DNA from: Raillietiella orientalis
Taxonomy: Eukaryota
NCBI GenBank assembly: GCA_036172245.1
Contig: JAYWIR010000035.1
Location: 2,170,001 to 2,234,000 of the forward strand
Length of the DNA: 64,000 nt
Direction of reading: 5' to 3'
Below the pieces are notes generated by a model. It searched no databases. It saw only the letters and a list, made by a program, of their open reading frames with translations, and was not told where the DNA came from. The translations under genes were made by a program, and so were the position numbers. Positions within the stretch are counted from its first letter, which is position 1. Each line of letters begins with the position of its first letter. This document shows positions 4,783 to 50,472 of this stretch, piece by piece.

Positions 4783-4988
4783 TTGCCACCCGGTCACGCC
4801 GGGACGTTTATTAAAAATTCTCTTTGATTCGTGGTACGAGGCCCCACTACGGCCAACTGAACTGGACCTGCGGGGTCGCCGGTACGCAGACAGGCACGAC
4901 TCTCCTCGGCAGCGGAAGGGGGTGGGGGAAAAAACAAAAAGAAAAATAAAACATAAAAACAAAAAGATTTGGGAGGGTTGTGGAGGGA

Positions 4989-7900: not shown

Positions 7901-8574
7901 GAATATCAACCGGAAATGGTCAGGCAGCTCCGACGCAACTTTCCCCCGTTTGCCGACCCGTGAACACAGGTCGACATCCAGGAAGACGTGGTCGATGCTG
8001 CTGACCATTTCCGAAAGATCCCCTAACAAGTTGCGCGTGCGCATTGCGGCGCACAACTCGTTAGCCGTCCGTTCCTGTGCGTGTGGCTCACCTGATAGCA
8101 GGCGGAGATTAAAGTCTCCCGCTATCAGGTGAGCCACGCGCACGTTCGCTTCCACCAGCCAGTCGCGCTTTAGGGTTTCCAGGAACGCCTTACGTTCCTG
8201 GTATTGGTAGGACCGCTCGGAGCGTACACATTTGTTACGACGAGGTCGATCGTGTCGGACCACCTGAGAATCAGCTGGCCGACACGACCGGCTTCGTCGA
8301 AGCGCACGCCCTTCACGGCTGCGTCGACTGCCGGCTTCATAAAAAACGCGACGCCGCAGGTGTATCGGGTGCCGCATTGCCACATCAACCGTCCCCCTGC
8401 GATCCTTTCGATCTCCTGGGCGTTCTCCGCGGTGATCACGTGGATCTCCTGCAGGAGTGCCAGGTCGAAGTCACGCAGGGTGTCGGCCGTGTCCCGTCTG
8501 TTGCCGTCGTCGCGCAGCCCGTTCACGTTCCAGCAGGCCACGCGTAATCGACGGCGACAGGCGAGCCCAGGTGT
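4989..8574 (-). pseudogene. ORF2 of B1 (APE-RT-CCHC), frameshifted
   Basis: 783-aa open stretch 5544-7895 with the RT motifs; endonuclease split over frames 8170-8712 and 7799-8383; stop at 5544. Confidence 0.9.
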
Positions 8575-17653: not shown

Positions 17654-18130
17654 TTATCACTCGGGTGCGCTGGGGCGTTTATTAAAAACTATCCGGGAAC
17701 AGAGTTCCTGGACAAAGGGGAAAACAAGATACGAAGTTGGTGGGATCCCCGACACGCAGGTCGGTATGGCGAAAGTCCGGAACGGTAGGGAGGGGACCAC
17801 AAATAGACTACTATAAAATATAAAAAGACAAATATGGAGGGCAGAGGACAGGGGTCTTTGGTTCGGCCGTTCCTTCCTTTCAGAACCGGCGATGGATGCC
17901 GGCGATCTCTCTCACGCTCTCTGGTAGGTGGGGCCACTCGGCAGCCGACGACATGTTTGTGCTGGCTAATCCGGTGGGCTGACGAACGATGGCCAGCTTC
18001 TCCAACTCTCGGTGGGCCTTGTCGATGGCGCGGGTGCAACACAAGGTTGCAACGATAGCACCTAAAGACAGGCCGCCTGGCGTGAAGAAGCGGGGCATCA
18101 AGTCCCTCGCGGTGTCCGCCTGGTGCAGGC
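17654..18130 (-). mobile_element. 3' terminal fragment of a further subfamily (G; F/H-like)
   Basis: Terminus AATAAACGCCCCAGCGCACCCGAGTGATAA; C-terminal peptide RFFTPGGLSLGA...IAGIHRRF. Confidence 0.8.
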
Positions 18131-18190
18131 GAGCTCTTCTCGCGTTCTCCTGTGTTGCTGGCTCACCTGTTAGCAGGCGGAAATTGAAAT

Positions 18191-19469
18191 TTATCACCCG
18201 GTCACGCCGGGGCGTTTATTTAAAATAAACCGGTCAGGTACGATGTCCCCAACCAACGAAACGACTAAGAACAAAGAGAAGTTACCGGTACACAGGCCTG
18301 GTGAACAAACCGCTTCCAACAGTGAGGGAGTGAAGGGATAACAAAACAAAAACACAAAATCTAGAGGGAAGGGTAACGGGTCTTTGGTGAGGCTCCGTAC
18401 TCACGGGGATTCACAAGAGAGAGCACCTAGAAGGTTCCGGAGCCTAAGAGGACGGAAGTGGACGAAAAAAAAAAAAACTTGATAGGCGGCGAGGGGAAAG
18501 GGTCACCGGTTGCGCTGCTGGGTAGCGTCTGTAAACCGACGGTGTATGCCGGCGAGATCCATTTTTGTGTCCTCAGTCAATTGAGGCCATCTGGAGGCCG
18601 CTTCCATATAGGAGGCTGCCTTTCCGACTACCTGTTGATGCTGCCCATTGTTTACCAGCGCCTGACGGGCTGAGACTATGGCGCGTATACAACCGATGGT
18701 TGCAATGCTTGCGCTTGTAGACAGCCCGCTCGGCGTGAAGAATCGTCGCAGCAATTCTCTTGCGGTGTCCACGGGATGCGAGAGTGCTGTTGCCAGCCTG
18801 CGCCACGGTCCTTGTAGGACACCGCAGTCCAGAAGTAGGTGCGGAATCGACTCCGTCGATCCGCACCGAACGCAGTTCGCAGACGCAAGTCCCCCGGAGT
18901 CACGATGCCAACGCTCGTTGCACTGAAAACCCTAGTGAACGAAAAGCATCACGGCTTGTTTCCAAGCAAGGGGGAGCAGCGAACTGTCGACACACTGTGG
19001 AGGGACTACAAGTTCTTCGGTGGTGACACCAAGTTCTTCTGCCCACCGGAGGAGTCCCTTTGTAGTAGAACGAAAAGTGGCGGCGCCGCCTACTCACTCG
19101 TCTTCTAGGCGCCAAGGTGTTTCGTTTTTCCCGCTATCGTGCAGGAAACCTCCCACCTCGCCGGTTGGCAACTGTTGTTTCTTGCCCTGAGGGCAGACAG
19201 CGCTGCGGCGAGAGGCGTGGCAGCCAGGGTTGAAAACTTGACCTCTTCCTGCAGTACCTCTTCCAAAGATCGCGGAAGAAGGTGGCGCAGGGGGCGGAGA
19301 TCTTCAGGGCGTATTCCTTGGAACGCCGCCCAGGATTCAACAGACTCCAGCCTCCAGGCTTCTACGTTCATTGGGTGGCAGGAGATCCACGAATGGGCTT
19401 CCAGAAGTGCGGTCAACTGCCGCAATGGAAAACCAAAACCTCGCTTCCTGTATTGGGTGCCCGCAAAAG
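18191..19469 (-). mobile_element. Subfamily F copy 1, 5'-truncated and joined directly to virus-like sequence
   Basis: Closely similar to 22331-23610; similarity ends at GCAAAAG (19469). Confidence 0.88.
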
Positions 19470-19872
19470 TAAAGCAGCCACGCCATCGCAAAAACAACCT
19501 CTAGTTTCCTTGACTGCATCTATTCAAACAAGGGCAACGTAATAAACAACACACAAAACTTGAAACAAATTTTATTAAAAGAGTCTTAAAACATTAGGTC
19601 ATAAATATGAAATATAAACACTATATACGAACTGCAGGTTCCTTCACCGCATGGGTTAGGCTGCAGGTAGTATCTCCTCATGCTGTCTAAGCCTCACTGA
19701 TCTAGGAAGCGTGTGCTCGAATGTTCGTATTGCTTCATATAACTTTGTCCTTATATGTGCTACGCGATCAGTTCCTACTTGCGGAGTGATCATTTAGATG
19801 AGCTTGAGGGATAACTCCTTGGGAACCTTAGAGCAGAAGGCCTCCCACTCCGGAGAAAGGTCCTCCTTAGAT

Positions 19873-20616
19873 TCAATTGCTTGTTAGGACGTGTGGTGAT
19901 AAGCATAGGGTAGATTTAGGGTAGACGTTCAACATGAACGATCCGAGCCTTCCCAAAGTCGCGTCGGCTTCCGAGTCATTGTAAGTCGTACGAGCTTGCC
20001 CCGTGATATACCTTGCTCCGATATGATAGTGTTTGGCATTAAGCACGATGCTGGCGTAGGCTTCACCCAAGAAAAGCATGTTTTCTATTTCTCGACAGTT
20101 AGCTGCTTGTGCCCAGTTTACCAAGCGCTTGAAGGCCTGATATGCTACTGCGTGTCTATGCGTGCCAGCAGGTGGCGACAAGAACCGTAGCAATGCATCT
20201 TGAGATATTGACAGAGGCTTGAAAGGTGGTCCTTGGATGGTCAGTTGCATTGATTCTATTATATGTGTGAATCCAGCGAGCTCTAACACACGAAGAGTGC
20301 TGCAAAAATGTCCCAAAATATGTGCAATGTCCATTCCTTTTTCCTCTGACAATGGGGACCTTGCGAATAGGGAACGCCACACTTTTAAGGGGTATCCTGC
20401 GCCACGAGTGTTATCCTTTCTGATTCCTGTGTGGTGATTTGTTAGCCACCAGGAGACTTTCGTTGCTATAGTCAACACCATACAATTGGTCGCCAACTGC
20501 TGACTCAAGGCAGCCTGGCTAGCAGTTCTCTGAGCCGGAGTCATGTCGTCCTTTTGAGGGGTACGGCGCCAATCTCCGTCTGGCATCAGTACATCGTGGT
20601 ATAAGGTTCTATTCAC
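19873..20616 (-). CDS. Endogenous virus-like ORF fragment, possibly a qin-like negative-strand RNA virus nucleoprotein
   Basis: 247 codons open in an AT-rich block unrelated to the LINEs; motifs ATKVSWWLTNHHTG and PAGTH. The family call is from recall and was not searched. Confidence 0.5.
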   Translation of the reverse strand: MNRTLYHDVLMPDGDWRRTPQKDDMTPAQRTASQAALSQQLATNCMVLTIATKVSWWLTNHHTGIRKDNTRGAGYPLKVWRSLFARSPLSEEKGMDIAHILGHFCSTLRVLELAGFTHIIESMQLTIQGPPFKPLSISQDALLRFLSPPAGTHRHAVAYQAFKRLVNWAQAANCREIENMLFLGEAYASIVLNAKHYHIGARYITGQARTTYNDSEADATLGRLGSFMLNVYPKSTLCLSPHVLTSN

Positions 20617-20619
20617 GTG

Positions 20620-20924
20620 CCTATGCTCGGCGTACGTTAGATTTGTTTGGTGGGAAGGTGGAGCGTTATTCTCGTTATCCTTGGGTTGATTGTGGATCTG
20701 GAGCTTCTTTGGATAAGGAATTGTTGTCAGCGGTGTTTTTTAACCGTATCCATGTGATGAAGCATATGTCTGGTGTGGATATTCCTGATAGTATAAAGGC
20801 TCAATGTCAAGGAGGTATGTGTCCCAAAAATGGCACGATGACTCAAGGATACCCAGTGTACCGAATGACGAAAAAGTATTATACAGAGTTTAAACATTTG
20901 AGAGACCCACCACTGTATTCGTAA
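20620..20924 (+). CDS. Putative CRESS-DNA virus capsid, C-terminal fragment
   Basis: Convergent with Rep; RYPWVD and terminal YYTEFKHLRDP resemble circovirus-like Cap ends. Confidence 0.5.
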
Positions 20925-20958
20925 TAAGAGAATATAAGCAAAATACAAAATAAAAGGT

Positions 20959-21663
20959 TTATTTGTCTGCATTGTCTAAGAGGGGTGACAAAGTTGAGCA
21001 AGAGGAGTCAGGCGAGTCGCGGGCTTGCCCTGTACTAGGGCTTGAAGGGCAAGCCCAAGGGAGAATGGCTCCACTATCGTCCATTGTCCAAGGACAGAGT
21101 CCAGCACCATCATATCTTGAGATGTCACGAACATTCCATCGATCACTAGACATTTTATCATAGTTAGGTTCCCAGTTGGAGAAAACAATGATGTGTGGGG
21201 GTTCGAAGTATTTGATACTCCCTTGATATTTGGAGTCAAATATTACACCATTCTTTAGGCTTTCAATGAAGCCATATTGGACTATTTCCTGGTTGTCACG
21301 TGTCAGATCAACGAGAATGATTCTCTCCCCGTTGTAGATATGAGCAGCATCGGCTTTTCTACATGAGTGCATGTATATGGCTGCTTTTTTTAAATATAAA
21401 AACTTGGCAAATATGGTTTTGCCGTTTCCTCCCACTGGGTCATAGTACCAGTATATTTTGCGATTGTCTGGTTGGTTTCTGATGATTTTCAGTATGTCCA
21501 TTTGCCAACTGCGTAATTGCAAGTTGGCCATTGGGTTAGGGTGGCTTCTGCTCCTCGTTAACCGAAAGCATTCCTTTACGAAATTGATGTTTTCACTGTA
21601 GAACTTAGTGTGGTTCTCCAGTATGTCGAGCTCAGTGGCGCCATTTTTAATTAGCTGGAGAAT
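20959..21663 (-). CDS. rep: CRESS-DNA virus Rep, SF3 helicase half
   Basis: LRSWQ, Walker A (YDPVGGNGKT), Walker B (IILVDL), motif C (IIVFSN) and SSDRW. The frame stays open upstream of the ATG at 21531 (ILQLIKNGATELDILENH) to an AG at 21664. Confidence 0.9.
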   Translation of the reverse strand: MLQLIKNGATELDILENHTKFYSENINFVKECFRLTRSRSHPNPMANLQLRSWQMDILKIIRNQPDNRKIYWYYDPVGGNGKTIFAKFLYLKKAAIYMHSCRKADAAHIYNGERIILVDLTRDNQEIVQYGFIESLKNGVIFDSKYQGSIKYFEPPHIIVFSNWEPNYDKMSSDRWNVRDISRYDGAGLCPWTMDDSGAILPWACPSSPSTGQARDSPDSSCSTLSPLLDNADK

Positions 21664-21704
21664 CTGGAATACAATAAAATTATTTAATTAAACCGTTAAC
21701 CGAC

Positions 21705-21995
21705 CTAAAGCGGATCTTGTCGTGTGTTAGTAGGACATAAATGCCATTTATCATCAGTGTCAATTGGGCATCTTTGAACTGCTTTGAACTGTGAAGCCAC
21801 CCATTCGCAACCGCTGCAATGTTCTTGATGGTGACTAGCGTTGGTTGGCTGATTGATGGGCAATCGTTTATCTTCGGGTAGGGCTACGTCCGTACCGGTA
21901 GTGAGCCGTATCTCTATGTCCCCATCCAAGTATGGAAGACTTTCACTGTATTCTTCGAAGGCTGCGGCTAGCTCATCTTCTCTTGTAGCCGCCAT
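21705..21995 (-). CDS. Small hypothetical ORF in the CRESS segment
   Basis: MAATREDE..., 96 codons, no recognised motif. Confidence 0.35.
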   Translation of the reverse strand: MAATREDELAAAFEEYSESLPYLDGDIEIRLTTGTDVALPEDKRLPINQPTNASHHQEHCSGCEWVASQFKAVQRCPIDTDDKWHLCPTNTRQDPL

Positions 21996-22266
21996 ATTCA
22001 AGTTGAAAAACTAATACCTGGGTAAAGAGAAAAGGTTAGTGTCAATTAGAATATCAGGTTCCCACCCAAGTGCCTATAAAGCAAAATGTTTGCAGGAACA
22101 TGCTCATTCCCCCCGTAAGACTGCTAGCACACCACATTACAAACATGCTGTGCATACCTATAAGTACCATGAAAGCTACCTGAGAGCAAGTTACTGTCAT
22201 TTGGTTGCCGAGTCGACACAAACAGGACACTGGATTGTCATACATTACAGTCCTAATTATAATGTT

Positions 22267-22303
22267 TCTGAACTTCCTTATATTACGAGGAAGGGCCCTC
22301 AGA
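22267..22303 (+). promoter_or_regulatory. Putative rolling-circle origin stem-loop
   Basis: CTTCCT-TATATTACG-AGGAAG hairpin carrying TATTAC, with an outer TCTGA/TCAGA pair. Confidence 0.55.
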
Positions 22304-22643
22304 GTGTTTTCTGATAGAGGAGATTGAAATTTATCACCCGGTCACGCCGGGGCGTTTATTAATAATAATAAACTGGTCAGGGACAATGTCCCCAACCAAA
22401 AGAACGACAGAGAACATAGAAAAATTACCGGTGCGCAGGCCTGGTAAACAAACCGCTCGCAGCGTGGGGGGAATCAGGGGAAACAAACAAAAATCAAAAA
22501 CTGGAGGGAAGAATAACGGGTTTTTGGTTAGGCTCCGTACTCACGGAGATTTATACGATGAGCACCTAAAATGTTCCGGAGCCTATGGGGACGCGGGTGT
22601 AAAAAGAAAATACAAATTTAGTTTATGGAGGGTAGGGCAATGA

Positions 22644-25600
22644 TCACCGGGTTGGCCGCTGATGAGGGTGTGTAAACCGGCGGTGTATTGCGGCGAGATT
22701 CCTCTTTGCCTCCTCTGTCAAATGAGGCCATCTAGCGGATGCTCCCATGTAGAAGGATGCTTTGCTGATTACCTCTTGGTGCTGTCCGTTGATTACCAAC
22801 GCCAGGCGGACGGAAACTATCGCGCGTATGCAACCGATGGTTGCAATCCTTGCGCTTAGTGAAAGCCCGCTCGGCGTGAAGAATCGTCGCAGCAAGTCTC
22901 TTGCGGTGTCCACGGGATGCAATAGTGCTGTTGCCAGCGTACGCCACAGTCCTTGTAGGACACCGCAGTCCAGAAGTAGGTGCGGGATCGACTCCGTCGA
23001 TCCGTACCGAACGCAGTTCGCAGACGCAAGTCCCCCGGAGTCACGATGCCAACGCTCGTTGCACTGAAAACCCCAGTGAACGAAAAGCAGCACGGCTTGT
23101 TTCCAAGCAAGGGGGAGCAGCGAACTGTCCATACACTGTGGAGGGACTACAAGTTCTTCGGGGGTGACAGCAAGTTCTTCTGCCCACCGGAGGAGTCCCT
23201 TTGCAGTAACAAGAGGAGTGACGGCGTCCGCCAACTCACTTGTCTTCCAGGTGCCAAGGAGTTTGGTTCTTCCCGCTATCGTGCAGCAAACCTCCCACCT
23301 CGCCGGTTGGTAACTGTTGTTTCTTGCCCTGAGGGCAGACAGCGCTGCGGCAAGAGGCGTGGCAGCCAGGGTAGAAAATTTCACCTCGTCCTGCAGTACT
23401 TCTTCCAAGGATCGTGGAAAAAATTGGCGCAGGGGGCGAAGATCTTCAGGGCGTATTCCTTAGAACGCCGCCCAGGATTCAACAGACTCCTGCCGCGAAA
23501 CTTCAAAGTTCATTGGGCGGCAGGAGATCCAAGAGTGTGCTTCCAGAAATGCGGTCAACTGCCGCAATGGAAAACCGAAACCCCGCTTCCTGTATTGAGT
23601 GCCCGGCAAAAGCGAGAGAAATCCTCCGCTGCCGGCGCATCTCCGCAGGAGAATGCGAGCTGGCACACACAGGGGGGATGTCCAGAGCTGGGCACACAGT
23701 GCCAGCAGTCGGAACTGCACCTGCAGTCCGATTCGCTCCATTGTCAGGATACCCAAACCAGCATCCCGACGCGGAGCTGACAAATCTTAAAGGCGGATCC
23801 TGGATCTCGCCGGACCCCAGAGAGCGTTCCTGAGCAGGCGCTTAGCCCGCTGTTTTGCCGCATAGGGGGGGTCCAAAACAAAAAACAGGGGACGGAGGAG
23901 GGGGGCCACAAAGGTGTTCCAAATAGTCGCCCGTTCCTGCAACGTAAACTTGCCGTTAAAGAACGGGCTGATGGCCAACTCTGCTTTCTGAAGACAGTCC
24001 GCCCACGCTTCGGCTGCGCCGAAAGCGCCCAACGGAACGCCAAGGTACTTAAAGTACCCGCCCGTGGGGATCCCCAGGCGGATTCAGTCGGACTGCCCCT
24101 CCAACGACGTACCCACAGGAACGACCACGCTCTTCTCTCTGTTCACGCTCACGCCCGCTCCCCGACGAATCAGGTCGAAGAAATCCTCGACACTGGACGC
24201 CGGGGTGGACATGGGGAGCAGAAGAAGCAGGTCATCAGTGTAGGCGGCCACGGCAGGCGTTCCCGGGAAGGAGCTTGGCATGTGAGACAGCGTCAGCCTG
24301 TATGCTCTTAGCACCAACTCAAAGAAGATGCTGAAGAGCAACGGGCTTAAGCTGTCGCCCTGTCGGATGCCCCTACGAACAGGGATACCATACACGCGGC
24401 AGCCGCTAAAAGTGATGCAGGTTAGCGCGTTGCGCCAGCACGCGCGCAAATACAGCAGGAGTTGCGCCGGGAACCCAAGGCGTTCCATAAGCTCCAAAAG
24501 CAGCTTCTGGTTTACGCAGTCGAACGCCTTGTGGAGATCGACCGCGACCGCCAAGGCACCTGGCGTTCCCTCCTGCCGTCGGCGCCTGTTCTTTTTGCCT
24601 GCGGCAGTGACTTTCGCAGCAGCCTGGCTTTGTTGCGCCACAACATCCTGCAGCTGCATCCATGTACGCGCGAAAAGGATGTTTGCCTCCATGGATCGTC
24701 CCGGAACCGCGTAGGTTTGTTCCGGGCTCACCACAGATTCCGCGATTCTTCCTAACCGCGCGACCCACAGCTTTGAAAACAACTTGACGTCCGAGTTCAC
24801 CAAGGTGATCGGACGCCAGTTGTTAAGTTGGCGCAAGTCTCCGCCTTTCGGCAGGAGACGCACCTTCGCTGAGCGGAAGGAATCAGGGACATTCCCGGAT
24901 TCACTCATCAGCGTCGCGAGTTTAAGCATCAAGGGAATGAGCTCCACTGCAAAGCACTGATAAAACTCTGCAGGGGATCCATCCTCGCCTGGCGCCTTTC
25001 GTCTCTTCAGCTCAGCGATGGCGGACGAAAATTCATCCGCCGTGAAGGGCTCGTCGAGACGTTCGCGTTCCTCCTCGCCGACAACACGAGCATCCTGAGA
25101 CAGGAGTATCTCAGAAAGAATATCCTCCGTCGGGGATTCCGCGTAGAGCGAGGAGTAGGAGCGTCTCACAATGCGGCGTACTTCGGCTGGGGCCGAACAT
25201 TCCTGGCCCTTGTCGTCCAACAGGCATGCTGCTCCGGACTGCCAGACCTGGCGCTCGGCCTTCGCCTTGTACTCTGCGAGACGCCCGACATCCGCGCGTC
25301 TCGAAAACGTGCGGGCCTGCAGAAAGTCTCTACTGTTGGCCACGCCCTCTCCGAAACCGCGTGGAAGCCGGTGCAAGGGGAATTGGCAACAGAACTCGCG
25401 GACAGATCTTTTGAGATCGTCCCAGTCCGCAAGTTCTTGAATGGCAAAGCCCCGGAGGTATCCACGTAGATGCTTCGCAGCCTCCGGTTGCCTAAGCCAA
25501 TCCGCCTGCATCCTCCAGCTTTGCAACGGAGGCCCCCTGCCTGGCGGAAGGATCTCAAACTCCAGCCTGTGGTGGTGAGAAAGCTCAGTCAACACTCTTC

Positions 25601-26237
25601 CTCTCCTACCCACACGCGAATGCAGGTTTTCATCGAGGAAAACGTGATCGAGCGATCTTTCCATTCCAGGTTCGCTGACCATCAAGTTGGCGGCGTGCAC
25701 GGACGCGCACATCTCGATGGGCAGCGCGCGCTCCCTCGGGCGGCTCCAATCGTCGGAGAGCAGGCGGACGTTGACGTCCCCAGCGACGAGGTGCGCCACT
25801 TGGAAGCCGGAGCTGTTGAGCCACTGGCTCTGCACCTCACCAAAGAAAGCTACTCTTTCTTCGAGGTAGCGAGAGCCACTCGGCGCGTAGACGTTCGTAA
25901 CGACGAGATCGATGGACTCGGACCACTTGATGACAAGCTGGCCTATCCGTCCGTTGTCATCGAAACGAACACTACGCACCGCTTCCGCCATTTTTCCTCT
26001 TACGAGGAACGCGAGGCCGCACGTGTGTGCGCCGCCGCACCGCCAATGTAGCGTTCCGCCTGCGCGCTCCTCGATTTCGGCTGCCTGCTCGTCGGAGATT
26101 ACGGGAATCTCCTGCAGCAGCGCGAGGTCGAAGGGGCGCAGGGCGTTGGCTACTAATCGCCTCTTCTCGTCGTTCTGCAGTCCGTTCACGTTCCAACACG
26201 TTACGGACAGACGACGAGAAGACGCGATTCCCCGCAT
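22644..26237 (-). pseudogene. ORF2 of F2 (APE-RT-CCHC)
   Basis: 717-aa ORF with APE and RT motifs (YTDD); premature stop at 24084 and further stops downstream. Confidence 0.9.
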
Positions 26238-28141
26238 TACTGCTGGGAAGGTGGCAGCTTTTTGCTCGCTTTATCCGGCGAGCAGACGGCGAGCAGCACG
26301 ACTGGCTGGAGGGGACGGTCGCCACCGTCCTCTGTCGTGCTGCATGCATGTAATGCCTCCACGCCAGGCTGAACCCCGTCGTGTTTCGTGGAGACTTCGC
26401 GTTGCTTCGCGGCGAGCGTTGCCTGGCTGCCTACTTTTGATCGGCGCGCACACGCTGTCGAACGAGTTGTCCTCGTCTCGGTGATCGGAACGGCATCCAT
26501 TTCAGAGTCCCACCGGCGCATGTTCGATCGGGTTTCGGCCTTCCGCGAAGCAGTGACAGGTTCTGCTGGATTGACAGCTGTCCTGTTTTCGTTTTCCGTC
26601 ACCAGAGCATCGCTTTTGGTGACGGCTGCTTTCCCGGCGCGCGCGTTTTCAGCGTGCTCACGCGCAGTTGCACGAGGGACCTTTGCTGAAGTCTTCTTTA
26701 CTTCATTACGGTTCCTCACTTCGCGTGGCGCCGTAAATGGAGATTGTGCTCCATGGCCATCTTTGAAGCCATCCTCGTCTTTGGACGGGAGCACTTTCGA
26801 TGGCTCCGACACGCTCGTCATGGACGCTGCTTTCGGAAGGGCTTTTAATCCCTTCGTTGGCATGGCATCCGCGCCAGTCGAGAGCTTGATCTCCGACTGC
26901 GACGGCGTGAGATTTTTCTCCGCTTTCGCGGTGTTGGATCGCGACGCGGATTTTTTTTTGCCGACTTTCGAAGTCGACACGGCGCAACCCTTCTTACCCG
27001 ATTTGGGCTTCTCAGCCACTGCAGGAGGTGAAGGAATGGATCTGACGGTACTGGAAGTGTCCTTACCGCCGTTGTCCATTGGCGTCCCCGCCGGTTGCTC
27101 GAACTCCGAGAGAGCCGGGCGTGCTTGGGAAGGACAGCTATTGCGCCTAGGGGGACTTACCATTGCCCCGGATTCCCCGCACCCTTTCTTTTGCGGCTCC
27201 CCTGCCGCGAGGCGGGGTGCGCAGGGCTTCGCGTGCAAGGTTTCCTGCTGCTTTGGGGCGACATTCCGCCTCGCGTTTTTTCGGAATTTCTGCCGTGGGG
27301 TCTCCAGGTTTTTCGCAGATTTTTTCTTTTTATCCGCGCTTTGTTTTTCAAAATGGAGCTCCGCGGCTGCCTTTTTTCGCAAAAGATCCAGGCAATTTTT
27401 CAATTGGTGCACGGATAGTTTGCAATAACGGCATTTTCCAGAGGGGCATTTATCCAAAGAATGCCCCTCCTTCCCGCATTGATCGCACGTTTTTACTTTG
27501 CCCACGAACCACAGGTGAACGACCGTGTCTTTCACCTGTAGTTTGGTGGGCAGCAGACGGCGTTCCGGCATTGTAAGCCGGACTCCAGCGACTCCGCTGT
27601 GTATGGACAAGAAGTCCTTGAGGTTGCTACGCACCCTCCACAGCGCATGGACCGTGGCGAATTTCGCCAACGCGTTCCGAATATCAGTATCGGAGATTTC
27701 CGACTCGATGTCGAAAATCTCCACCACAAATGAGTCGTCCATGGCGGCCGGGAAGAACTTCTGGCCACGGATCGACAACAAGGTGCGCAGCAAGCGTTGC
27801 ACAAGTGCAGCGTCTTTGCAACGCACCTTGAAATAGCCCATGTCTTTTACGGGCATAATGGCGAGAAGGTCCTCCTCCCGCACGCCAACACGGTTCAGTT
27901 CATCGTTGAAGTGATTCCCGTCGCGCGCAGAAAGAAAACCACTCACCTTATATCGGAGAGCAGGTCTATAGCCTTGGGCTACGTATGCCCGCAACTCCGA
28001 CTCGTCGAGTGGTTTCCCTTTGACGGCTGCTGTGGCAGCAACGTCAGCAAAACTCCTCTCCATTGGCGGGAAAGACGAAGTGGAGGCGGCCGTCGGTTCT
28101 GCGATTGCAGATCCGGATGCTGTTCCTCCAACTTCGACCAA
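26237..28141 (-). CDS. ORF1 of F2
   Basis: 634 aa with CDQCGKEGHSLDKC knuckle; TAATG overlap with ORF2. The true start may lie slightly upstream across a frameshift. Confidence 0.8.
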   Translation of the reverse strand: MVEVGGTASGSAIAEPTAASTSSFPPMERSFADVAATAAVKGKPLDESELRAYVAQGYRPALRYKVSGFLSARDGNHFNDELNRVGVREEDLLAIMPVKDMGYFKVRCKDAALVQRLLRTLLSIRGQKFFPAAMDDSFVVEIFDIESEISDTDIRNALAKFATVHALWRVRSNLKDFLSIHSGVAGVRLTMPERRLLPTKLQVKDTVVHLWFVGKVKTCDQCGKEGHSLDKCPSGKCRYCKLSVHQLKNCLDLLRKKAAAELHFEKQSADKKKKSAKNLETPRQKFRKNARRNVAPKQQETLHAKPCAPRLAAGEPQKKGCGESGAMVSPPRRNSCPSQARPALSEFEQPAGTPMDNGGKDTSSTVRSIPSPPAVAEKPKSGKKGCAVSTSKVGKKKSASRSNTAKAEKNLTPSQSEIKLSTGADAMPTKGLKALPKAASMTSVSEPSKVLPSKDEDGFKDGHGAQSPFTAPREVRNRNEVKKTSAKVPRATAREHAENARAGKAAVTKSDALVTENENRTAVNPAEPVTASRKAETRSNMRRWDSEMDAVPITETRTTRSTACARRSKVGSQATLAAKQREVSTKHDGVQPGVEALHACSTTEDGGDRPLQPVVLLAVCSPDKASKKLPPSQQ

Positions 28142-31100
28142 GTAGCTTCAAGTTGGGTCGACATCGTCGTCAAAATGTACGACGCCAAGATGAAGCGGAT
28201 GAAAGCACGGAGACGAGAGCGAAGAAAAACACGTCCGCACTCGATTGAAATCTCCTGCTATCAGGTGAGCCTTTCGCACCTTGGTATTCGCCAGCCAGTC
28301 GCGTTTCAGGGTTTCCAGCAGCCTGGTGCGGTCGCGGTACCCCTGTTTGCCGCTGGGGCCATACACGTTTGTGACCATTAGGTCGATCGAGTCGGACCAG
28401 CTGAGAATCAGCTGACCGATCCGACCGTCGTCATCAAACCGCACGCCCTTTACGTCAGCGTCGATGGCCGGCTTCACGAAGAACGCGACCCCGCATGTGT
28501 TGCGGAAGCCGCATCGCCAATACAATCGACCCCCCACGATCGTCTCGATCTCCTGGGCGTCTCCCGCGGTGATCACGTGGATCTCTTGCAGCAGCGCAAG
28601 GTCGAGCTCACGCAGGGTGTCGGCCGTATCTCGCCTGTTGCCGTCGTCGCGCAGCGCGTTGACGTTCCAACAGGCCGCGCGAATGCGACGGCGACTGGCG
28701 AGCCCAGGTGTTAGTCCTGGGAAAATGGCGATGCGGCGTCCGCCACCTGCTGGGGCGGGACGCTAGGTGGAGGGGGAGGGGGGACAGGTACTGAAGGCAC
28801 CTTTTCCTCCTCCTCCATCGGTGCCGGCGCGTCGGCCGGATCACCCGCACGTGGAGTCGCGCCTACTTCCATCGCGGTGTCCTCTGGCAACGCTGCCATC
28901 CGACACCGACGATGTGCACGCACAAATCACTCAAGAAGAAAAAACACTCGCTTTGCCACGCAGGCGGAGCGCAGGAAAAGAACGTCCGCTCTCCACAGCC
29001 GGGCTTCGGCATTGTCAACCGGGTACGCCGGGGCGTTTATTTGTAAAATCTACATGCGTGGTACGAGGCCCCACCACGGCCGTAAACACGCGACCTGTCC
29101 GGACACCGGGACGCAGCCCTTCGTGGCACTCCCCAACAGCGAAGGGGGATGGGAATAAGACAAAAAGAAAAATAAAAAGAAACAAACAAAAAGAAGTTGG
29201 AGGGCAGGGAAGGGATCACTGGTCGCTGTGAGGAGGGCCCATCCGTCGAACGAAGCCCTTGAGGTCAGTCTGCATATTCCCCAGTTGGGGCCATCCGGCA
29301 GCTCTTCGCAAGAAGCTATGGGCATACGTGATGACATCCCTCGCCTGTGGACCCACTCCTTCGTTGCTGGCGTCGCTCCATGCCGCCACGATGCCACGGA
29401 CGCAGCACAAGGCTGCGATGGCTGCGGCTGGCTGCAGTGCGTCCTTCACGAAGAGGGGCCGAAGAACGTCTCTGGGGGTGCTGCCCGTAGGGAGCCCGAG
29501 GGTCGTCCCGAACCGTTCCCAAAGGCGTCGGAGGGCAGCACAATCCACAATAGGGTGAAGAAGCGACTCCCGCTCCCCGCACCTGGCACACGCAGGATCC
29601 ACAGCTCCCCTCGTCTACTGGAAGCTGCGCGGGTTGCAGGGTAGACCCCAGTGCAACAAAAGCAACGCCGACTCTTGCCACTTGAGGGGCAGGATCCTGG
29701 ATTCCTTCATCACCGGGGGCCACTTCAGCTCATCCCTGGGGATGGCGAGCAGCTCGCCCCATCTTAATAATCCTCGCGGCTGCATGCTCGGGGTCGTGGC
29801 GTCGGCCAGTTCTCCTGTTGTCCAGCCGCTGATCAACTTCTCGCGTCCCTCGATGCAGCAGGAGACTTGCCACCTTGGCGTCCGGGTGCTGTGAAGTGCC
29901 CTCCTTAGGAAGGGCAGCGCCGTAGCTAGGCAGGTCGTCTCTGCCCAGGTGCATCTTGCTGGACTCTCCAGGAGATTCCGCAGCGTGCCGCGGGCGTAGG
30001 GGCTGCATCGGAGACGATTCCACGTCTCGTGGCTTGTCTGGTTAACCACTGCCCACGTTCCAATATTCTCCTCCAGCCAGGCGGGAGAGTTGCCGGGGCA
30101 GCAAACCATCCAGCTGTTCTCCTTGGCCAATGTTGCCATGCGCCAGAGCAGTAGGCTGCTTCTTCGCATCTTGCGGACACGGGTCAGAAGAAAAGACGCG
30201 AGTCCATCGCACCGGCATACACGGCTGGACAGGAGGCGGGCCGGAGTGCACCAAGGGGTGCTCCACATCTTTGCTGCGATGGCGAGGGTTCGCCACCGCA
30301 GCTGCTTCTCCACGCACTCCGGCGTCAGGAGGCCAAAACCGCCGTCCCGACGAGAAGCGAACAAGTCCTTCGGTAAGAATCGGGGCCTTCCCTTGCCCCA
30401 AAGGGCGATACGGAGGAGATCCTTCGTCCTCTTCTTGGATTCCACGGTGGGGGGGCAAACAAAAAGCAAGGGGCGGAGGATGGGGGCCGCGAAGGCGTTC
30501 CAAACCGCGGCCCGTTCCGGGATGCGAAACTTGCCTTCCAGGAACGGGCCGATCGCCGTCTCGACTTTTTGGAGGCAGCTGGACCACGCTTCCGCAGGGG
30601 AGTAGTCCCCAAACGGCACACCAAGGTACTTGAAGCACCTCGCGGTGGGGATCCCCAGACGGAGCCAGTCCTGCTGCCCTGCCCAAGCCGCACCTATTGG
30701 CACAACCAACGACTTCGAACTGTTAACCTGCAGTCCGGTCCCGCGGTTGAGCAGATCGAAGAAGTCTCCGACCGCCATTGCCGGGGTGGACATTGGCAAC
30801 AAGAGCAGAAGATCGTCGGCGTACGCTGCAACGGCGGGCGTGCCGGGGCACGAGCTCGGCAGTGGGGCCAGAGTCACCCTGTACGCTCTCAGCACCAACT
30901 CAAAATAGGAGCTGAAGAGCAGGGAACTGAGGCTATCGCCCTGCCTTATGCCCTGCCGCACCGGCACGCCATGCACCTTGTGACCGCTGAAAGAGACGGT
31001 AATTATCGCATTCCGCTAGCAAGAGCGCAGGTAAGAAATCAGGGAGAGTGGAAAGCCCATGCGACCCAGGAGCTGCAAGAGGAGTTCCTGGTCTACACAG

Positions 31101-35213: not shown

Positions 35214-38200
35214 TTGCCACCCGGTCACGCCGGGGCGTTTATTTAAAATTCTCTTTGGTTCGTGGTACGAGGCCCCACTACGGCCAACTCAACTGGACCT
35301 GCCGGGTCGCGGGTACGCAGACCGGCGCGACTCTCCTCGGCAGCGGAAGGGGGTGGGGGAAAAAACAAAAAGAAAAATAAAACATAAAAACAAAAAGATT
35401 TGGGAGGGTTGGGGAGGGATCACTGACCACTGGGAGGAGGGTCCATCCTTCGCAGGATGCCCTCGAGGTCCGTCCGTATAATCCCCAGGTGGGGCGATCT
35501 GCTCACAATCCGCAGTTAGCGGACTGCAAGTACGACGGCATCCCTGTCGTGATTCGGTCTTCCGACGTTGCTCCAGCACGTCACAATCCCGCGTACGCAG
35601 CAAAGTGCAGCCAGGGCAGCGGCTGGACGCAGGGCATCATGCACGAACAGAAGCCGAAAAACGTCTCTGGGCTGGCTGCCCTCCTGGATCCGTAGGGAGG
35701 CACGAAGACGTTCCCACAGTGGTCGGAGGGCAGCACAATCAACAAGGAGGTGGGGGAGAGTTTCCCGTTCCCCACACCTGATGCAAGTAGGATCTACTCG
35801 ACCCCTGGTCCAGTGGTGGCGGCGTGCGTTGCAGGGTAGACCCCAATGCAACAACAGAAGCGCCGACTCCTGCCACTTTAGGGGGAGGATCCTAGAACCA
35901 ATTAATACCGGGGGCCACTTCAGGGCATCCGTCTGGATGCCGAGTAGCTCACCCCATCTCTGAAGTCCACTCGGCTGGACAGTAGGTGTACTGGCGTCCG
36001 CCAGTTCACCCGTGGACCAGCCGTTGATTAACTTCTCCTTGCCTGCGATGCGGCAGGAGACTTGCCACCTAGGCTTGCGGCTGCTGGAGAGCGCCCTCCT
36101 CAGGAAGGGCATCGCCGTTGCTAGGGGGGTTGTCTCTGCCCACGTGCTTCTCGCGGGACACTGGAGTATCTTCCGCAGAGTGCTGCGGGAATAGGCGCCG
36201 CGTCGCAGGCAGTTCCACATCTCTTCATTCTTTTCATTAATCTTCGCCCACGTGCCAGCTGTCTCCTCCAGCCATGCGGAGGAGTTGGCGGGGCTGCATA
36301 CCATCCAGCCGTTTTCCTTCGCCAGAGTTGCCATGCGTCCCAGGAGAAGTCCGCATCTCTTGATCTTCTTGCCACGGCAGAGAAGATAGGACGCGAGACC
36401 CTCCGTCCCGGATACACGGCTGGCAAGGAGTCGGGCCGGAACGCACCAAGAAGTGCTCCATAACTTCGCTGCGATGGCGAAGTTTCGCCACCGCAGCTGA
36501 ATCTCTACTCGCTTTATCGTCAAGAGGCCGAGACCGCCATCCCGACGTGGAGCACACAAGTCCTTCAACGGAACTCGGGGCCTCCCTCTTCCCCAAAGGG
36601 CAATTCTCAGGAGGTCCTTCGTCCGTTTTTCAACTCTCTGGGGACGGGGCAAACAAAAAGCAGGGGGCGGAGGATAGGAGCCGCGAACGCGTTCCATACC
36701 GCGGCCCGTTCCGGAAGGAGAAACTTGTCTTCCAGGAACGGGCCGATCGCCGTTTCCACTTTTTGGAGGCAGCCGGACCACGCTTCCGCGGGGGAGTAGT
36801 CCCCCAACGGCACACCAAGGTACTTCAAGCACCTCGCCGTGGGGATCCCCAAGCGGACCCAGTCCTGCTGCCCAGCCCACGTCGCACCGACTGGCACCAC
36901 CGTCGACTTCGCCCTGTTCACCGTAAGTCCGGTCCCGCGGATAAGCAGATCGAAGAAATCCCCGACCGCCTTCGCCGGGGTGGACATCGGCAACAGAAGC
37001 AAAAGATCGTCGGCGTATGCTGCTACGGCAGGCGTGCCGGGGCACGAGCTCGGCAAGGGTGCCAGTCACCCTGTACGCTCTCAGCACCAACTCAAAGTAG
37101 GTGCTAAAGAGCAGGGGACTGAGGCTGTCGCCCTGCCGTATGCCCCGACGTACCGGCACGCCGTACGCCATTTGACCTCTGAAAGAGATATTGATCAGCG
37201 CGCTGCGCCAGCAAGAGCGCAGGTAGGTCAGTAGGGAGTGAGGGAAGCCCATGCGTCCCAGGAGCTCCAGCAGGAGATCCTGGTCCACGCAGTCAAACGC
37301 TTTGTGCAGATCGACTGCGATCGCTAGGGCTCCCTTCCCCACCTGGGAGTCCTGTCCCTGCCCGGCTGACGCTCCCAAAGCGGGGCTGCCAATCCTTTCC
37401 TCTTCCTTTTCTTGACTACTCTGCACATGAAACCATGTGCTCGCGAAGAAGAGGTTGGCCTCCATACTTCGCCCGGGAACAGCGTAAGTCTGCTCCGGGC
37501 TAATTATGGAATTGGCCACCTGCCCCAGACGCGAAGCCCACAGTCCGTCGATCAACTTGGCGTCCGTGTTCACAATTGTGATCGGACGCCAGTTGCTGAG
37601 TTTCCTGAGGTCTCCTCCTTTCGGAAGGAGCCTCACTCTGGCTGACCGAAACGAGGCGGGTACATCGCCTTCATCTCGGATCAGCCTTGTCAACTCAAGC
37701 ACCAGGGGTGCCAACTCTGCCGCGAAACATTGAAAAAACTCCGCAGGCAGGCCGTCCTCCCCTGGTGCTTTCCGCCTCTTGAGCCTTTTGATACCGGCGA
37801 GAATTTCGCCGGTGGTAAAAGGCTCGTCGAGGCTTTCCTTCTCCTCCTCCCCTATTGCCGGGGCACCGTTCGGAAGCATGCGCCGAGAGGCATCTTGGTC
37901 CGGGGGCGCCCTGGCGTAAAGGGAGGAATAAAAACGCCGCACGAGGTGCCGTATTCTAGCCGGAGCCGAGTGCTCCCGGCCCTGGTCGTCCAGCAAGCTG
38001 GCCGATCCGGATTGCCAGGCTAGACGTTCGGCCCCGGCTCGGTATTCTGCCAGGCGAAGGACATTGGGAGTCCTCTCGTACCGGCGGGCGTGTAAATAGG
38101 CCCTATGGTTACGAGCCCCCTCCCCAAATCCGGGGGGCAGGCGGTGCAGAGGGAACTCCTCGCAGAACTCGCGGACCGAGGCCTTCAAGAGGTCCCAATG

Positions 38201-49010: not shown

Positions 49011-50472
49011 ACGTCGGCGCTGCTGGTGTTGCATTGGGGGCTTCCTTGCAACGCCCGCCGACAACACTGGACGCGGGGGGGTGTTAACTCTAATTGTGTC
49101 AGGTGCGGGGAGAGGGAATACCTCCCCCACCTGCTAGTGGAATGTGTTGCCCTCCGTCCCTTGTGGGAACGCTTTGCCGCAGCCCTGGGGATCCCCGGAG
49201 GCAACCCCAGAGACGCTTTGCGCCCCCTCTTCGTCCGTGACGTCCTGCCTCCAGCGGCCTCGCTTGCAGCCCTGTGCTGCCTCCGCGGGATCGTCGTGGC
49301 ATTAGGCAAAGCGACGGGAGGATCCAGCGACAGGGATGCCAACGTGTATGCCGCCCGTTTCCTCAGGATGGCGACGCGATGGCCCCATCTGGAACCACAC
49401 AAGCAGAAACAGCTTGCCGGCATCCTCCAGAGGATGACGGACCCCAGCAGACTGTGATCCCTTCCCGCTCCCTCCCTGATTTTTGTTTATTTTTTCTCTT
49501 CTTTTTGTTTCGTTCCCCCTCCCCTCTGCTGCCGAGGTCGACCGCGCCGGTCTGCGCACCGGTAGCCCGGAAGGATATATCTTTCCAGGGCGTGGCTAGA
49601 CTACTGGTCCAGTCACAGATTGTATAGGTTTATTCGTGAGAATAAACGTCCCGGCGCACCCGGGTTTCAATAGAGATTCCGGAGCGTGACGCCTCTGAGG
49701 TATTCGCGAAGGTGTTCCTTCGCACCTGAGAGTCGCGTCCAGTGCCCCGGCAGACGCCAATCCCTGAATGGCGGTCCTTTGTCGCGAGGCCGCATCTCGA
49801 AAATTAACCGGGAATTGTCCGACAACGTCGACGCAACCCTCCCCCGTTTGCCGACCCGTGAACACAGGTCAGCGTCGAGGAAGACGTGGTCGATGCTGCG
49901 GACCATTCCCCTCTCACCCGCGAACAAGTTGCGCGCACGCATGGCGGCGCACAACTCATTCATCGCGTTCTCTTGTGTTTCTGGCTCACCTGTTAGCAGA
50001 CGGAGATTGGAATCTCCCGCTATCAGGTGAGCCTTCCGCACGTTCGTGTCCGCCAGCCAGTCGCGCTTCAGGGAATCCAGCAGCCTGGTACGGTCGCTGT
50101 ATCCCTGTTTACCGCTGGGGGCGTACACATTCGTGACGATCAATTCGATCGAGTCGGACCAGCTGAGAATCAGCTGACCGACCCGACCGTCGTCATCGAA
50201 GCGCACGCCCTTCACTGCAGCGTCGATGGCCGGCTTCACGAAGAACGCGACCCCGCAGGTGTTGCGGAGGCCGCACCGCCAATACAACCGACCCCCCGCG
50301 ATCGTCTCGATCTCCTGGGCGTCTGCCGCGGTGATCACGTGGATCTCCTGCAGCAGGGTCAGGTCGAGCTCACGCAGGGTGACGGCCGTATCTCGCCTGT
50401 TACCGTCGTCGCGCAGCCCGTTCACGTTCCAACAGGCGGCGCGAATCCGACGGCGACTGGCGAGCCCAAGTT

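What the first reader, a model, noticed from the sequence alone, without database searches (positions are those of the whole stretch)
18178..22330. Virus-like sequences captured inside a retrotransposition event at the F target site
Seen: the order is target CGGAAATTGAAAT (18178-18190), F1 3' end, F1 truncated at 19469, 2.85 kb of AT-rich foreign DNA (RNA-virus-like ORF, then a CRESS cap/rep/ori segment), a second target copy GGAGATTGAAAT (22319-22330), then F2. The duplication brackets F1 and both foreign pieces as one unit. Inferred: during target-primed reverse transcription the RT jumped from F RNA to one viral template and then to another, writing two unrelated viruses into the array. In a cluster of sense/antisense TE fragments this could work as a piRNA/siRNA-type heritable antiviral archive; that function is speculation.
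Basis: partly seen in the sequence, partly recalled or inferred. Interest (0 to 1): 0.9.

Follow-up and report, generated by a model that had tools for sequence, protein, structure and literature searches.

The report
Virus copies fused to a retrotransposon
A full-length copy of an RNA-virus (qinvirus) nucleoprotein segment, itself split by a piece of a small circular DNA virus, sits fused to a truncated retrotransposon inside one target-site duplication, a fossil of how a host reverse transcriptase can write a virus into a genome.

Summary
The coordinates are right, but the anatomy needs correcting. F1 (18191-19469) and F2 (22331-28243) are copies of a site-specific non-LTR retrotransposon. 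It inserts into a palindromic site in the GDFN-coding part of another retrotransposon (T). The 2.85-kb AT-richer block between them is not "virus A, then virus B".

It is a near end-to-end, 1.72-kb copy of a qinvirus nucleoprotein (N) segment, in the same sense as F1, split at N-profile positions 85/89. The insert there is a 1.1-kb fragment of a circovirus-like CRESS-DNA virus: the Rep helicase part plus a converging unidentified ORF.

The 3' end of the viral copy abuts the truncated F1 with 3 filler bases and no target copy between them. Its 5' end abuts the second target copy. F2 has its own 5' duplication at 28244-28251. Three copies of the 8-mer therefore fit two insertion events: F2 and [virus+F1].

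- **Supported:** a template jump from F RNA to viral RNA during target-primed reverse transcription.
- **Unresolved:** how the CRESS piece got inside N.
- **Not supported:** the "ori"; "cap" rests on position only.
- **Untested:** the piRNA-archive function and read support for the assembly.

This is a new variant of known kinds: LINE chimeric retrocopies and endogenous viral elements.

The parts
17654..18174 (-). Downstream remainder of target element T (T1-down). It encodes ...FNFRLLTGEPATQENA and is then fused to an F-like C-terminal/3' end that finishes at a TTATCAC-type end near 17654.
   Evidence: ORF 17880..18215(-) translation; repeat families D4, D6, D11, D12; alignment to empty T sites.
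18175..18190 (.). Target-site duplication, copy 1: AGGC GGAAATTGAAAT on the + strand (core 12 nt at 18179-18190).
18191..19469 (-). F1: the 3' 1.28 kb of site-specific non-LTR retrotransposon F, 5'-truncated.
   Evidence: 76-94% identity to F2; homology ends at 19469; weak zf-RVT hit in the C-terminal ORF.
19470..19472 (.). 3 filler bases between F1 and the viral 3' terminus.
19473..20586 (-). Qinvirus-like N segment, 3' part. It holds a terminus-like ...GGCTGCT (reverse complement AGCAGCC at 19473-19479), a 3' UTR, N profile positions 317-336 in a shifted frame (19883-19797), and positions 89-314 (20586-19885).
   Evidence: tblastn; HMM, E 5e-80; termini alignment; family identified by fold.
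20569..20582 (-). 14-mer CAGACGGAGATTGG, encoding the conserved PDGDW. It is identical to the empty T target at 49997-50010 and lies directly downstream of the break in N.
20587..21706 (.). Inserted fragment of a circovirus-like CRESS-DNA virus genome (about 1.12 kb; boundaries good to about 15 nt).
   Evidence: Lies between HMM positions 85 and 89 of N; GC 0.416.
20583..20924 (+).
   Evidence: No hits. The position matches the cap of relatives L005 and L007.
20959..21687 (-). CRESS Rep C-terminal part: linker plus superfamily-3 helicase with Walker A GGNGKT, and a stop overlapping AATAAA. The HUH endonuclease domain is absent.
   Evidence: 39% identity to P0001 and to the L005 Rep, E 1.5e-33. 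L005 Rep has Viral_Rep at 2.8e-17. Pfam RNA_helicase 0.0052, below cutoff.
21707..22315 (-). Qinvirus-like N segment, 5' part. It holds a terminus-like ATCAG-AAAACACT (22315-22303), a 5' UTR of about 300 nt, N profile positions 3-61 (21953-21777), and, after a probable frameshift, positions 47-85 (to about 21707).
22277..22297 (+).
22316..22330 (.). Target-site duplication, copy 2: AGA GGAGATTGAAAT (core 22319-22330). Its last 8 nt are also F2's 3' duplication.
22331..28243 (-). F2: full-length (5.9 kb) but degenerate copy of F.
   Evidence: RVT_1 2.9e-20 in ORF 24084-26270; 5' junction.
28244..28251 (.). F2 5' target-site duplication, ATTTCAAT on the minus strand.
28252..28400 (-). Upstream part of target element T (T-up), encoding ...ETLKRDWLANTKVRKAHLIAGDFN of the AP-endonuclease domain.

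Best explanation
Two target-primed reverse transcription events hit one copy of retrotransposon T, at its palindromic site in the GDFN-coding part of the endonuclease gene. One event inserted the full-length element F2. In the other, the reverse transcriptase began on F RNA at the nicked target and copied 1.28 kb. It then left that template, added about 3 untemplated bases, and jumped onto the 3' end of a full-length, N-sense RNA of a qinvirus small segment. It copied that RNA to its 5' end, and the cDNA was joined to the target. The result is a [virus + F1] chimera inside a 12-nt duplication (15-16 nt if AGGC/AGA is counted). Shown: the parts, their order and orientation, the junctions and the repeat count. 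Inferred: the jump itself. Later, or less likely during the same event, a 1.1-kb fragment of a circovirus-like DNA virus was inserted cleanly into the N gene, next to a 14-mer that mimics the element's target. My preferred reading for that step is capture of viral DNA at a break in the already integrated copy. The copy is a pseudogene, with the CRESS insert and at least two probable frameshifts. Any present role, for example as a small-RNA source, is untested.
For: F1 and F2 share the 3' end and 76-94% identity. F1 homology ends at 19469. The left flank of F1 aligns with uninterrupted T sites up to ...ATTGRAAT. F2 has T-up plus ATTTCAAT at its 5' junction. A third, unrelated 677-bp insert at the same site has a 12-nt duplication, so 12 nt is a normal duplication length here. 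The 8-mer core occurs only at 18183 and 22323 within 18100-22400, plus 28244, and none lies between the virus and F1. The viral parts are N-profile 3-85 and 89-336 of 380, with E 3e-9 and 5e-80 for the two main pieces, and both match P0002 best. The family has 723 cluster representatives at E<=0.001. A model of member P0002 (pLDDT 91.9) matches seven qin-like virus proteins in BFVD at E 1e-22 to 9.5e-14, three of them named nucleoprotein or nucleocapsid. The summed viral length of 1.72 kb equals that of related contigs (1601-1883 nt) and the 1.6-1.9 kb reported for qinvirus segment 2 (PMC10496375, passages). Both ends carry AGCAG-type termini like both ends of L004 and the 5' end of L001. The CRESS Rep identity rests.
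Against: No read or long-read support: the only run found covers two 151-nt stretches and no junction. The terminus comparison rests on 2 of 4 reference contigs; L002 and L003 do not show the motif. The two ends of the window's own copy are not significantly complementary: 418 of 500 shuffles reach the observed score. The two duplication copies differ (1 of 12; 3 of 16 if extended). The N-profile hit for positions 47-85 is weak (E 0.09), so the exact break is uncertain by about 15 nt. A chance landing of a separate CRESS insertion inside a 1.7-kb viral copy is improbable a priori. That favours a linked process which I cannot specify. The canonical nick positions of the element do not reproduce the observed CRESS junction.
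Confidence: 0.6

Rival explanations
1. Everything was made in one event. The reverse transcriptase jumped from F RNA to the qinvirus RNA. Near the target-like 14-mer it left for a rep-sense CRESS template (a read-through transcript or the replicative-form strand). It then returned to the qinvirus RNA at nearly the same position and ran to its 5' end.
For: It explains why two unrelated viruses are nested rather than merely neighbours. The switch point lies beside a 14/14 match to the authentic target, which could stall or re-engage the enzyme. Single and double template switches by LINE enzymes, flanked by one duplication, are documented (PMC2104539, abstract read). The rep ORF (242 codons) and the N ORF (288 codons) are similarly undecayed.
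Against: It needs a return to within about 3 codons of the departure point, which is not a described outcome. The template would have to be a rep-sense molecule running about 350 nt past the rep stop and poly(A) signal into antisense cap. No filler or microhomology pattern can be verified without the parental sequences.
Confidence: 0.22
2. There was no chimeric event. The viral pieces entered a transposon-rich, insertion-tolerant region by other routes (another element's enzyme, or end joining). They now abut F1 and the F2 flank through deletions or rearrangement, and the second 'target copy' is only F2's own duplication.
For: F2 does have its own matching 5' duplication. The window is a dense nest of non-LTR copies in both orientations. 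Endogenous viral elements are known to accumulate in such regions (PMC6580184, passages).
Against: T natively has one copy of the core. Three copies exist, which is exactly what two insertions give. Only 12-16 nt of T remain between F2 and the viral 5' terminus, that is, the duplication length. The viral copy ends at terminus-like sequences at both junctions and has the same sense as F1. Deletions would have to stop at these points by chance.
Confidence: 0.1
3. Assembly artefact or contamination: viral contigs were stitched between two similar F repeats.
For: The block differs in GC from its surroundings. No spanning reads could be examined.
Against: F1 and F2 are only 76-94% identical, so they would not collapse. 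The junctions are precise and biologically structured, with duplication, filler and termini. An RNA-virus segment interrupted by DNA-virus sequence is not what contamination gives. A DNA-type run holds two Rep stretches with 0 differences at depth 3-4.5, though it may be the source sample.
Confidence: 0.05

Closest known systems
Bipartite and tripartite chimeric retrocopies made by LINE template switching (for example MGL-LINE/WEIRD/Mg-SINE chimeras of Magnaporthe, PMC2104539, abstract read; U6-L1 chimeras, recalled)
   Same: A 5'-truncated LINE 3' part lies at the 3' side. A foreign RNA copy is fused directly upstream in the same orientation. The whole is flanked by one short direct repeat (14 bp there; 12 nt here, 15-16 if AGGC/AGA is counted).
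   Different: The partner here is a full-length viral genome-segment copy, not a cellular RNA. The LINE is site-specific for a palindrome inside another LINE's endonuclease gene. The partner carries a nested DNA-virus fragment.
Non-retroviral endogenous RNA-virus elements made by LINE machinery (bornavirus-like N elements with L1 hallmarks, recalled; association of non-LTR elements with such integrations in Ixodes, PMC6580184, passages read)
   Same: A negative-strand RNA-virus nucleoprotein gene was endogenised, with a host non-LTR reverse transcriptase implicated.
   Different: Here the element's own 3' part is covalently attached. There is no poly(A) tail. The copy appears to include the segment termini rather than an mRNA 3' end.
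Qinvirus-derived endogenous elements (papers on ant genomes, PMC6540820, and basal hexapods, PMC6955108: search listing only)
   Same: Both derive from Qinviridae-like sequence in a eukaryotic genome. Family members also occur as insect genome proteins (Formica fusca, Popillia japonica).
   Different: I did not read what those papers report at junction level. The host here is unidentified, and its transposon DNA is 60% GC.
Endogenous CRESS-DNA virus Rep fragments (recalled) and free circovirus-like genomes such as L005 and L007
   Same: The Rep helicase is 39% identical to L005 Rep. Relatives carry Viral_Rep, a TAGTATTAC or TACTATTAC stem-loop and, in L007, Circo_capsid. The converging rep/second-ORF layout is shared.
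   Different: Only the 3' halves of the two genes are present: no HUH domain, and no ori within the fragment. The fragment is inserted inside another virus's gene.

Membership tests
Qinviridae segment-2 (nucleoprotein) copy | Protein homology to qinvirus N | tested here: met
   The family HMM hits the window at E 5e-80 (positions 89-314) and 3e-9 (positions 3-61). The model of family member P0002 matches seven qin-like virus proteins at E 1e-22 to 9.5e-14. No Pfam family exists for it.
Qinviridae segment-2 (nucleoprotein) copy | Segment length of about 1.6-1.9 kb with a single main ORF | tested here: met
   609 + 1114 = 1723 nt without the insert. Relatives are 1601-1883 nt. Literature value from PMC10496375.
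Qinviridae segment-2 (nucleoprotein) copy | Conserved, mutually complementary segment termini | tested here: inconclusive
   Both ends resemble the AGCAGCAA-type ends of L004 and L001. The window's own ends are not significantly complementary, and 2 of 4 reference contigs lack the motif.
CRESS-DNA virus (Cressdnaviricota) Rep | Superfamily-3 helicase domain with Walker A | tested here: met
   GGNGKT is present. 39% identity over 149-159 residues to P0001 and L005 Rep. Pfam RNA_helicase E 0.0052, below the curated cutoff.
CRESS-DNA virus (Cressdnaviricota) Rep | HUH endonuclease domain (motifs I-III) | tested here: not met
   No Viral_Rep hit in any ORF of the block. The place upstream of the helicase is occupied by the qinvirus N-terminal part. 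The fragment is truncated, not a complete rep.
CRESS-DNA virus genome | Origin stem-loop with a NANTATTAC nonamer next to the rep 5' end | tested here: inconclusive
   The only candidate (22277-22297, loop TATATTACG) is outside the fragment. 59 of 3000 shuffles give such a hairpin, and it is weak. Relatives have TAGTATTAC or TACTATTAC beside the rep start.
CRESS-DNA virus genome | Capsid gene | tested here: inconclusive
   The ORF at 20583-20924(+) has no match in Pfam, the 5.8-billion protein set, the Atlas (best 0.75) or the relatives' loci. Only its position fits.
LINE template-switch chimeric retrocopy | A 5'-truncated LINE with its own 3' end at the target, a partner fused upstream in the same sense, and one duplication around both | tested here: met
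piRNA/siRNA-producing cluster | Small RNAs mapping to the locus (1U/10A signature, strand bias) | not testable with these tools
   No RNA run was listed. Transposon orientation is mixed, 11 minus and 5 plus.

The most novel reading that the evidence does not exclude
In one target-primed reverse transcription event, a site-specific non-LTR enzyme stitched together its own RNA, a complete qinvirus segment and a circovirus-like template from a co-infected germline cell. The detour was triggered where the viral sequence mimics the enzyme's DNA target. Such target sites inside a transposon nest would then act as a recurrent, heritable recorder of infections that feeds small-RNA defence.
Probability: 0.12. 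Interest if true: 0.85.

Novelty: new variant of a known kind. Interest (0 to 1): 0.6.

Why it matters
RNA viruses that lack a reverse transcriptase still end up in host genomes. How this happens is mostly inferred from statistical association with retrotransposons. This locus preserves the junctions at base level: the element's 3' end at its specific target, a 5'-truncation point, 3 filler bases, a viral copy that seems to run from one segment terminus to the other, and the target duplication. That is the signature expected of end-to-end template jumping by a non-LTR enzyme. It also suggests that a full-length N-sense viral RNA, not a polyadenylated mRNA, was the template.

The nested DNA-virus fragment, next to a perfect mimic of the element's target, points to a non-random link between the element's machinery and the second capture. 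It gives a concrete site to test. If other copies of this target in the genome carry other cargo, the system would be a natural recorder of past infections.

Tried and rejected
- **Whole-genome search:** no genome is held for this window.
- **Earlier scan notes:** none by place, sequence or words.
- **PDB sequence search:** nothing useful for Rep or N. PHROGs gave nothing.
- **My first guess that X was a partitivirus capsid:** this came from contig sizes and a UniRef name 'Capsid protein'. The fold search rejected it and pointed to qinvirus N. Foldseek against PDB gave no match at E<=0.001; the best was rabies N at 7e-2.
- **Rep relatives in IMG/VR:** none.
- **'cap':** no support.
- **Panhandle between the two ends of the viral copy:** not significant.
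- **An intron in rep at 21705-21665:** the reading frames do not join (read from the sequence).
- **An F-type 3' end at the CRESS/N junction:** only a 16-nt AT-rich match. It was the one of ten comparisons that no shuffle reached, at score 22, and I judged it chance.
- **A target-site duplication around the CRESS piece:** only a 5-nt CACGA repeat. The DDKW/DGDW 'duplication' suggested by tblastn and MAFFT disappeared once a frameshift was allowed.
- **Reading TCTATCAG after the second target copy as T flank or as an inverted T remnant:** it is better explained as 3 bases plus the viral terminus ATCAG.
- **Canonical endonuclease cutting of the 14-mer in N as the source of the break:** the nick positions deduced would leave ATGCCAGAC on the other side of the insert, which is not what is seen.
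- **Rfam, tRNA and tandem-repeat scans:** empty.
- **Sequencing runs:** one DNA-type run with a small share and no RNA holder listed. When laid, it covers no junction and most of the block has no cover. One odd 'joint', 18359 to 21513, rests on about 17 similar bases and was ignored.
- **Host identity:** not established (one search was uninformative).

Full report
**Setting**

The 64-kb window is 55-66% GC in every 1-kb bin except 19-23 kb, where GC falls to 44-50%. It consists of non-LTR retrotransposon copies. Pfam RT, AP-endonuclease or zinc-knuckle domains occur in 11 long ORFs on the minus strand and 5 on the plus strand. There are no RNA families, tRNAs or tandem repeats. No whole genome is held, and the host is not identified.

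**The retrotransposon frame**

- 18191-19469 (F1) and 22331 onward (F2) are minus-strand copies of one element, 76-94% identical block by block. They share the identical 3' end TTATCACCCGGTCACGCCGGGGCG, read on the plus strand.
- The sequence left of F1 is not random DNA. It aligns with uninterrupted copies of another element, T, up to ...GCAGRCGGARATTGRAAT.
- On the minus strand this site encodes ...AHLIAGDFNLRLLTGEP of T's AP-endonuclease. The site is the centre of an imperfect palindrome of about 50 bp, GGCTCACCTGATAGCGGGAG-ATTCCAAT-CTCCGYCTGCTAWCAGGTGAGCC.
- In the window I found 3 empty sites: about 8100, 50002 and 56296.
- There are 3 insertions at this position:
  - F1.
  - F2, whose 5' junction reads T-up...CAGGAG-ATTTCAAT-F2 at 28244-28251. 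F2 therefore has its own duplication of 8 nt or more and is 5.9 kb long.
  - An unrelated 677-bp GC-rich insert at 38545-39221, flanked by a perfect 12-nt GGAGATTAAAGT.
- A 12-nt duplication is therefore normal for this site.

Both are real: GGAAATTGAAAT at 18179-18190 and GGAGATTGAAAT at 22319-22330. A search allowing 1 mismatch gave 4 matches, against 0.38 expected. The second copy is at the same time F2's 3' duplication.

The decisive point is the count. T natively has one copy of the core. The region has three, at 18183, 22323 and 28244. That is what two insertion events produce. No further copy lies anywhere between 18191 and 22318. So F2 is one event, and everything between 18191 and about 22315 is the other.

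**What the foreign block is**

- The 288-codon minus-strand ORF at 19873-20739 has relatives of 367-437 aa at 34-40% identity.
- tblastn of those relatives shows that their residues from about 88 to 317 lie at 20583-19885, and their residues from about 8 to 99 lie at 21941-21723. The gene is split.
- I built a profile from 74 sequences (73 family members plus the window's C-terminal part) and ran it against all six frames. The placements were:
  - positions 89-314 at 20586-19885 (E 5e-80);
  - positions 317-336 in a shifted frame at 19883-19797 (E 0.009);
  - positions 3-61 at 21953-21777 (E 3e-9);
  - positions 47-85, weakly (E 0.09), in a second frame down to about 21707.
- The gene is thus represented from position 3 to 336 of 380. 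It has two probable frameshifts and one interruption between positions 85 and 89.
- Both halves match the same relative (P0002) best.

**Identity of the split gene**

- The family is large: 723 cluster representatives at E<=0.001 among 1.84 billion. It has no Pfam family.
- Named members are insect genome proteins, one of them called 'Capsid protein' by UniRef.
- An AlphaFold model of P0002 (pLDDT 91.9, pTM 0.86) matches seven qin-like virus proteins in BFVD at E 1e-22 to 9.5e-14. Three of them are named nucleoprotein or nucleocapsid. Mononegavirus N proteins follow far behind.
- In PDB only weak N-protein matches appear; the best is rabies N at 7e-2.
- The gene is therefore a qinvirus-like nucleoprotein. 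My interim idea of a partitivirus capsid was wrong.

**Completeness of the viral copy**

- Without the insert, the viral parts add up to 1723 nt (19473-20586 plus 21707-22315).
- Four related IMG/VR contigs are 1601-1883 nt, with the match to N beginning 123-279 nt from the 5' end.
- The second qinvirus segment is reported as 1.6-1.9 kb with one main ORF (PMC10496375, passages read).
- Contig L004 has complementary ends, AGCAGCAAAAACACTAC... and ...GTAGTGTTTGTGCTGCT. L001 begins TAGCAGCAAC.
- In the window, the N-sense copy begins ATCAG-AAAACACT at 22315-22303, 3 bases after the 12-nt repeat. It ends ...GTGGCTGCT at 19479-19473, 3 bases (TAA on the plus strand) before F1.
- I read this as a copy that reaches both segment termini. 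Three reservations apply:
  - only 2 of 4 reference contigs show the motif;
  - the window's own two ends are not significantly complementary (418 of 500 shuffles reach the score);
  - the match has a 2-nt gap.

**The insert in N (about 20587-21706, 41.6% GC)**

- The minus-strand ORF at 20959-21687 is 39% identical over 149 residues to P0001, and over 159 residues to the Rep of contig L005 (E 1.5e-33).
- L005 Rep carries Viral_Rep (2.8e-17) and RNA_helicase. L007 has Viral_Rep and a Circo_capsid gene. L005, L006, L007, L010 and L012 have TAGTATTAC or TACTATTAC stem-loops.
- The window's piece covers only the linker and the helicase (Walker A GGNGKT). The HUH endonuclease domain is absent.
- A plus-strand ORF at 20583-20924 converges on the rep stop across 34 bases that carry AATAAA on both strands. 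This is where relatives have the capsid gene's 3' end.
- That ORF matches nothing, so 'cap' is positional only.
It lies about 570 nt away, beyond the N-terminal part of N, in the viral 5' UTR.
  - It is the only hairpin of its kind in the window.
  - A comparable hairpin appears in 59 of 3000 shuffles of the block.
  - It is weak: -4 kcal/mol, z -0.70.

**Mechanism for the virus+F1 unit**

- F1 carries the element's true 3' end at the canonical nick.
- It stops at an internal point.
- Three bases follow.
- Then comes the 3' end of a same-sense viral RNA copy that runs to its 5' end.
- Then comes the target repeat.

This is the structure of LINE template-switch chimeras. Those are documented with single and double switches and one flanking repeat (PMC2104539, abstract read). 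It also fits end-to-end template jumping with a few untemplated bases, known for R2 enzyme (recalled, not checked here).

The alternative is a virus inserted first and F1 later. That predicts a target copy between them, and none is there. I give the chimeric event about 0.7, and the whole scenario, including a later CRESS capture, 0.6.

**Mechanism for the CRESS piece: open**

- The insertion is clean, with at most about 3 codons lost or duplicated and only a 5-nt CACGA repeat at the borders.
- It has no F-type 3' end. One AT-rich 16-nt match is judged chance.
- A striking detail is that the N sequence immediately downstream of the break, CAGACGGAGATTGG (20582-20569, encoding the family-conserved PDGDW), is 14/14 identical to the authentic empty target at 49997-50010. 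With flanks the match is 16/19.
- My rough estimate is about 3e-4 for the joint chance that a PDGDW-coding stretch matches the target and that the break falls within 20 nt of it (inference, not a computed test).
- Cutting at the canonical nicks does not give the observed junction, so I cannot name the process.
- Candidates are capture of viral DNA at a non-canonical break, an out-and-back template switch during the same event, or polymerase-theta-type templated filler.
- Nesting of two unrelated viruses argues for some link. A chance hit of a 1.7-kb target is unlikely.

**Function**

- N is a pseudogene, and rep lacks its catalytic domain.
- Whether the locus yields small RNAs is untested, since no RNA holder was listed.
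- A DNA-type run holds two 151-nt contigs identical to 21032-21182 and 21501-21651 at depth 3-4.5, but no junction. It may be the source sample and is not independent support.

**Known and new**

Already in print:
- qinvirus-derived endogenous elements (PMC6540820, PMC6955108: search listing only);
- CRESS Rep integrations (recalled);
- association of non-LTR elements with RNA-virus integrations (PMC6580184, passages);
- LINE chimeras.

I did not find, in searches, a described case of a viral segment fused to a site-specific non-LTR element within one duplication, nor of a DNA-virus fragment nested in an RNA-virus copy. Those searches were few and keyword-bound, so this is not proof of absence. 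I rate the finding a new variant of known kinds, with interest 0.6.

Noticed in passing
8085-8135, 38513-39253, 49997-50033, 56285-56296, 18160-18190, 28244-28271: The GDFN-coding stretch of element T's endonuclease gene is an imperfect palindrome of about 50 bp. It serves as a specific insertion site for at least two different elements. In this window 3 sites are occupied and 3 are empty.
   Followed up: partly
38545-39221: A 677-bp GC-rich insert at the same target, with a perfect 12-nt duplication GGAGATTAAAGT. It has a hairpin at the end next to the priming side and an internal 54-nt repeat, and shows no similarity to F or to anything else in the window. It is possibly a non-autonomous partner or another captured RNA.
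   Followed up: partly
4783-4806 and 35214-35237: Two copies of an F-related 3' end (TTGCCACCCGGTCACGCCGGG...) sit at the same point of a reverse-transcriptase coding sequence (...NWRPITIVNADAKLL) of another element. This is a second site-specific nesting relationship.
   Followed up: no
17654-18178: About 20 codons downstream of the target, the T copy that received F1 is fused to an F-like C-terminal coding part and 3' end (68-70% identical to F). This looks like an internally deleted derivative.
   Followed up: no
20569-20582 (minus strand): The viral PDGDW codons are 14/14 identical to the element's genomic target, right beside the point where the DNA-virus fragment is inserted.
   Followed up: partly
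22015-22314 (+) and 22054-22341 (-): Both strands of the roughly 300-nt viral 5' UTR region are open for 95-99 codons despite about 44% GC. No homology was found for the plus-strand ORF in the CRESS relatives.
   Followed up: partly
L004 1-22 and 1715-1741; L001 1-20: Qinvirus-like segment-2 contigs from IMG/VR show AGCAGCAA-type complementary termini. This may be useful as a terminal signature for the family.
   Followed up: partly
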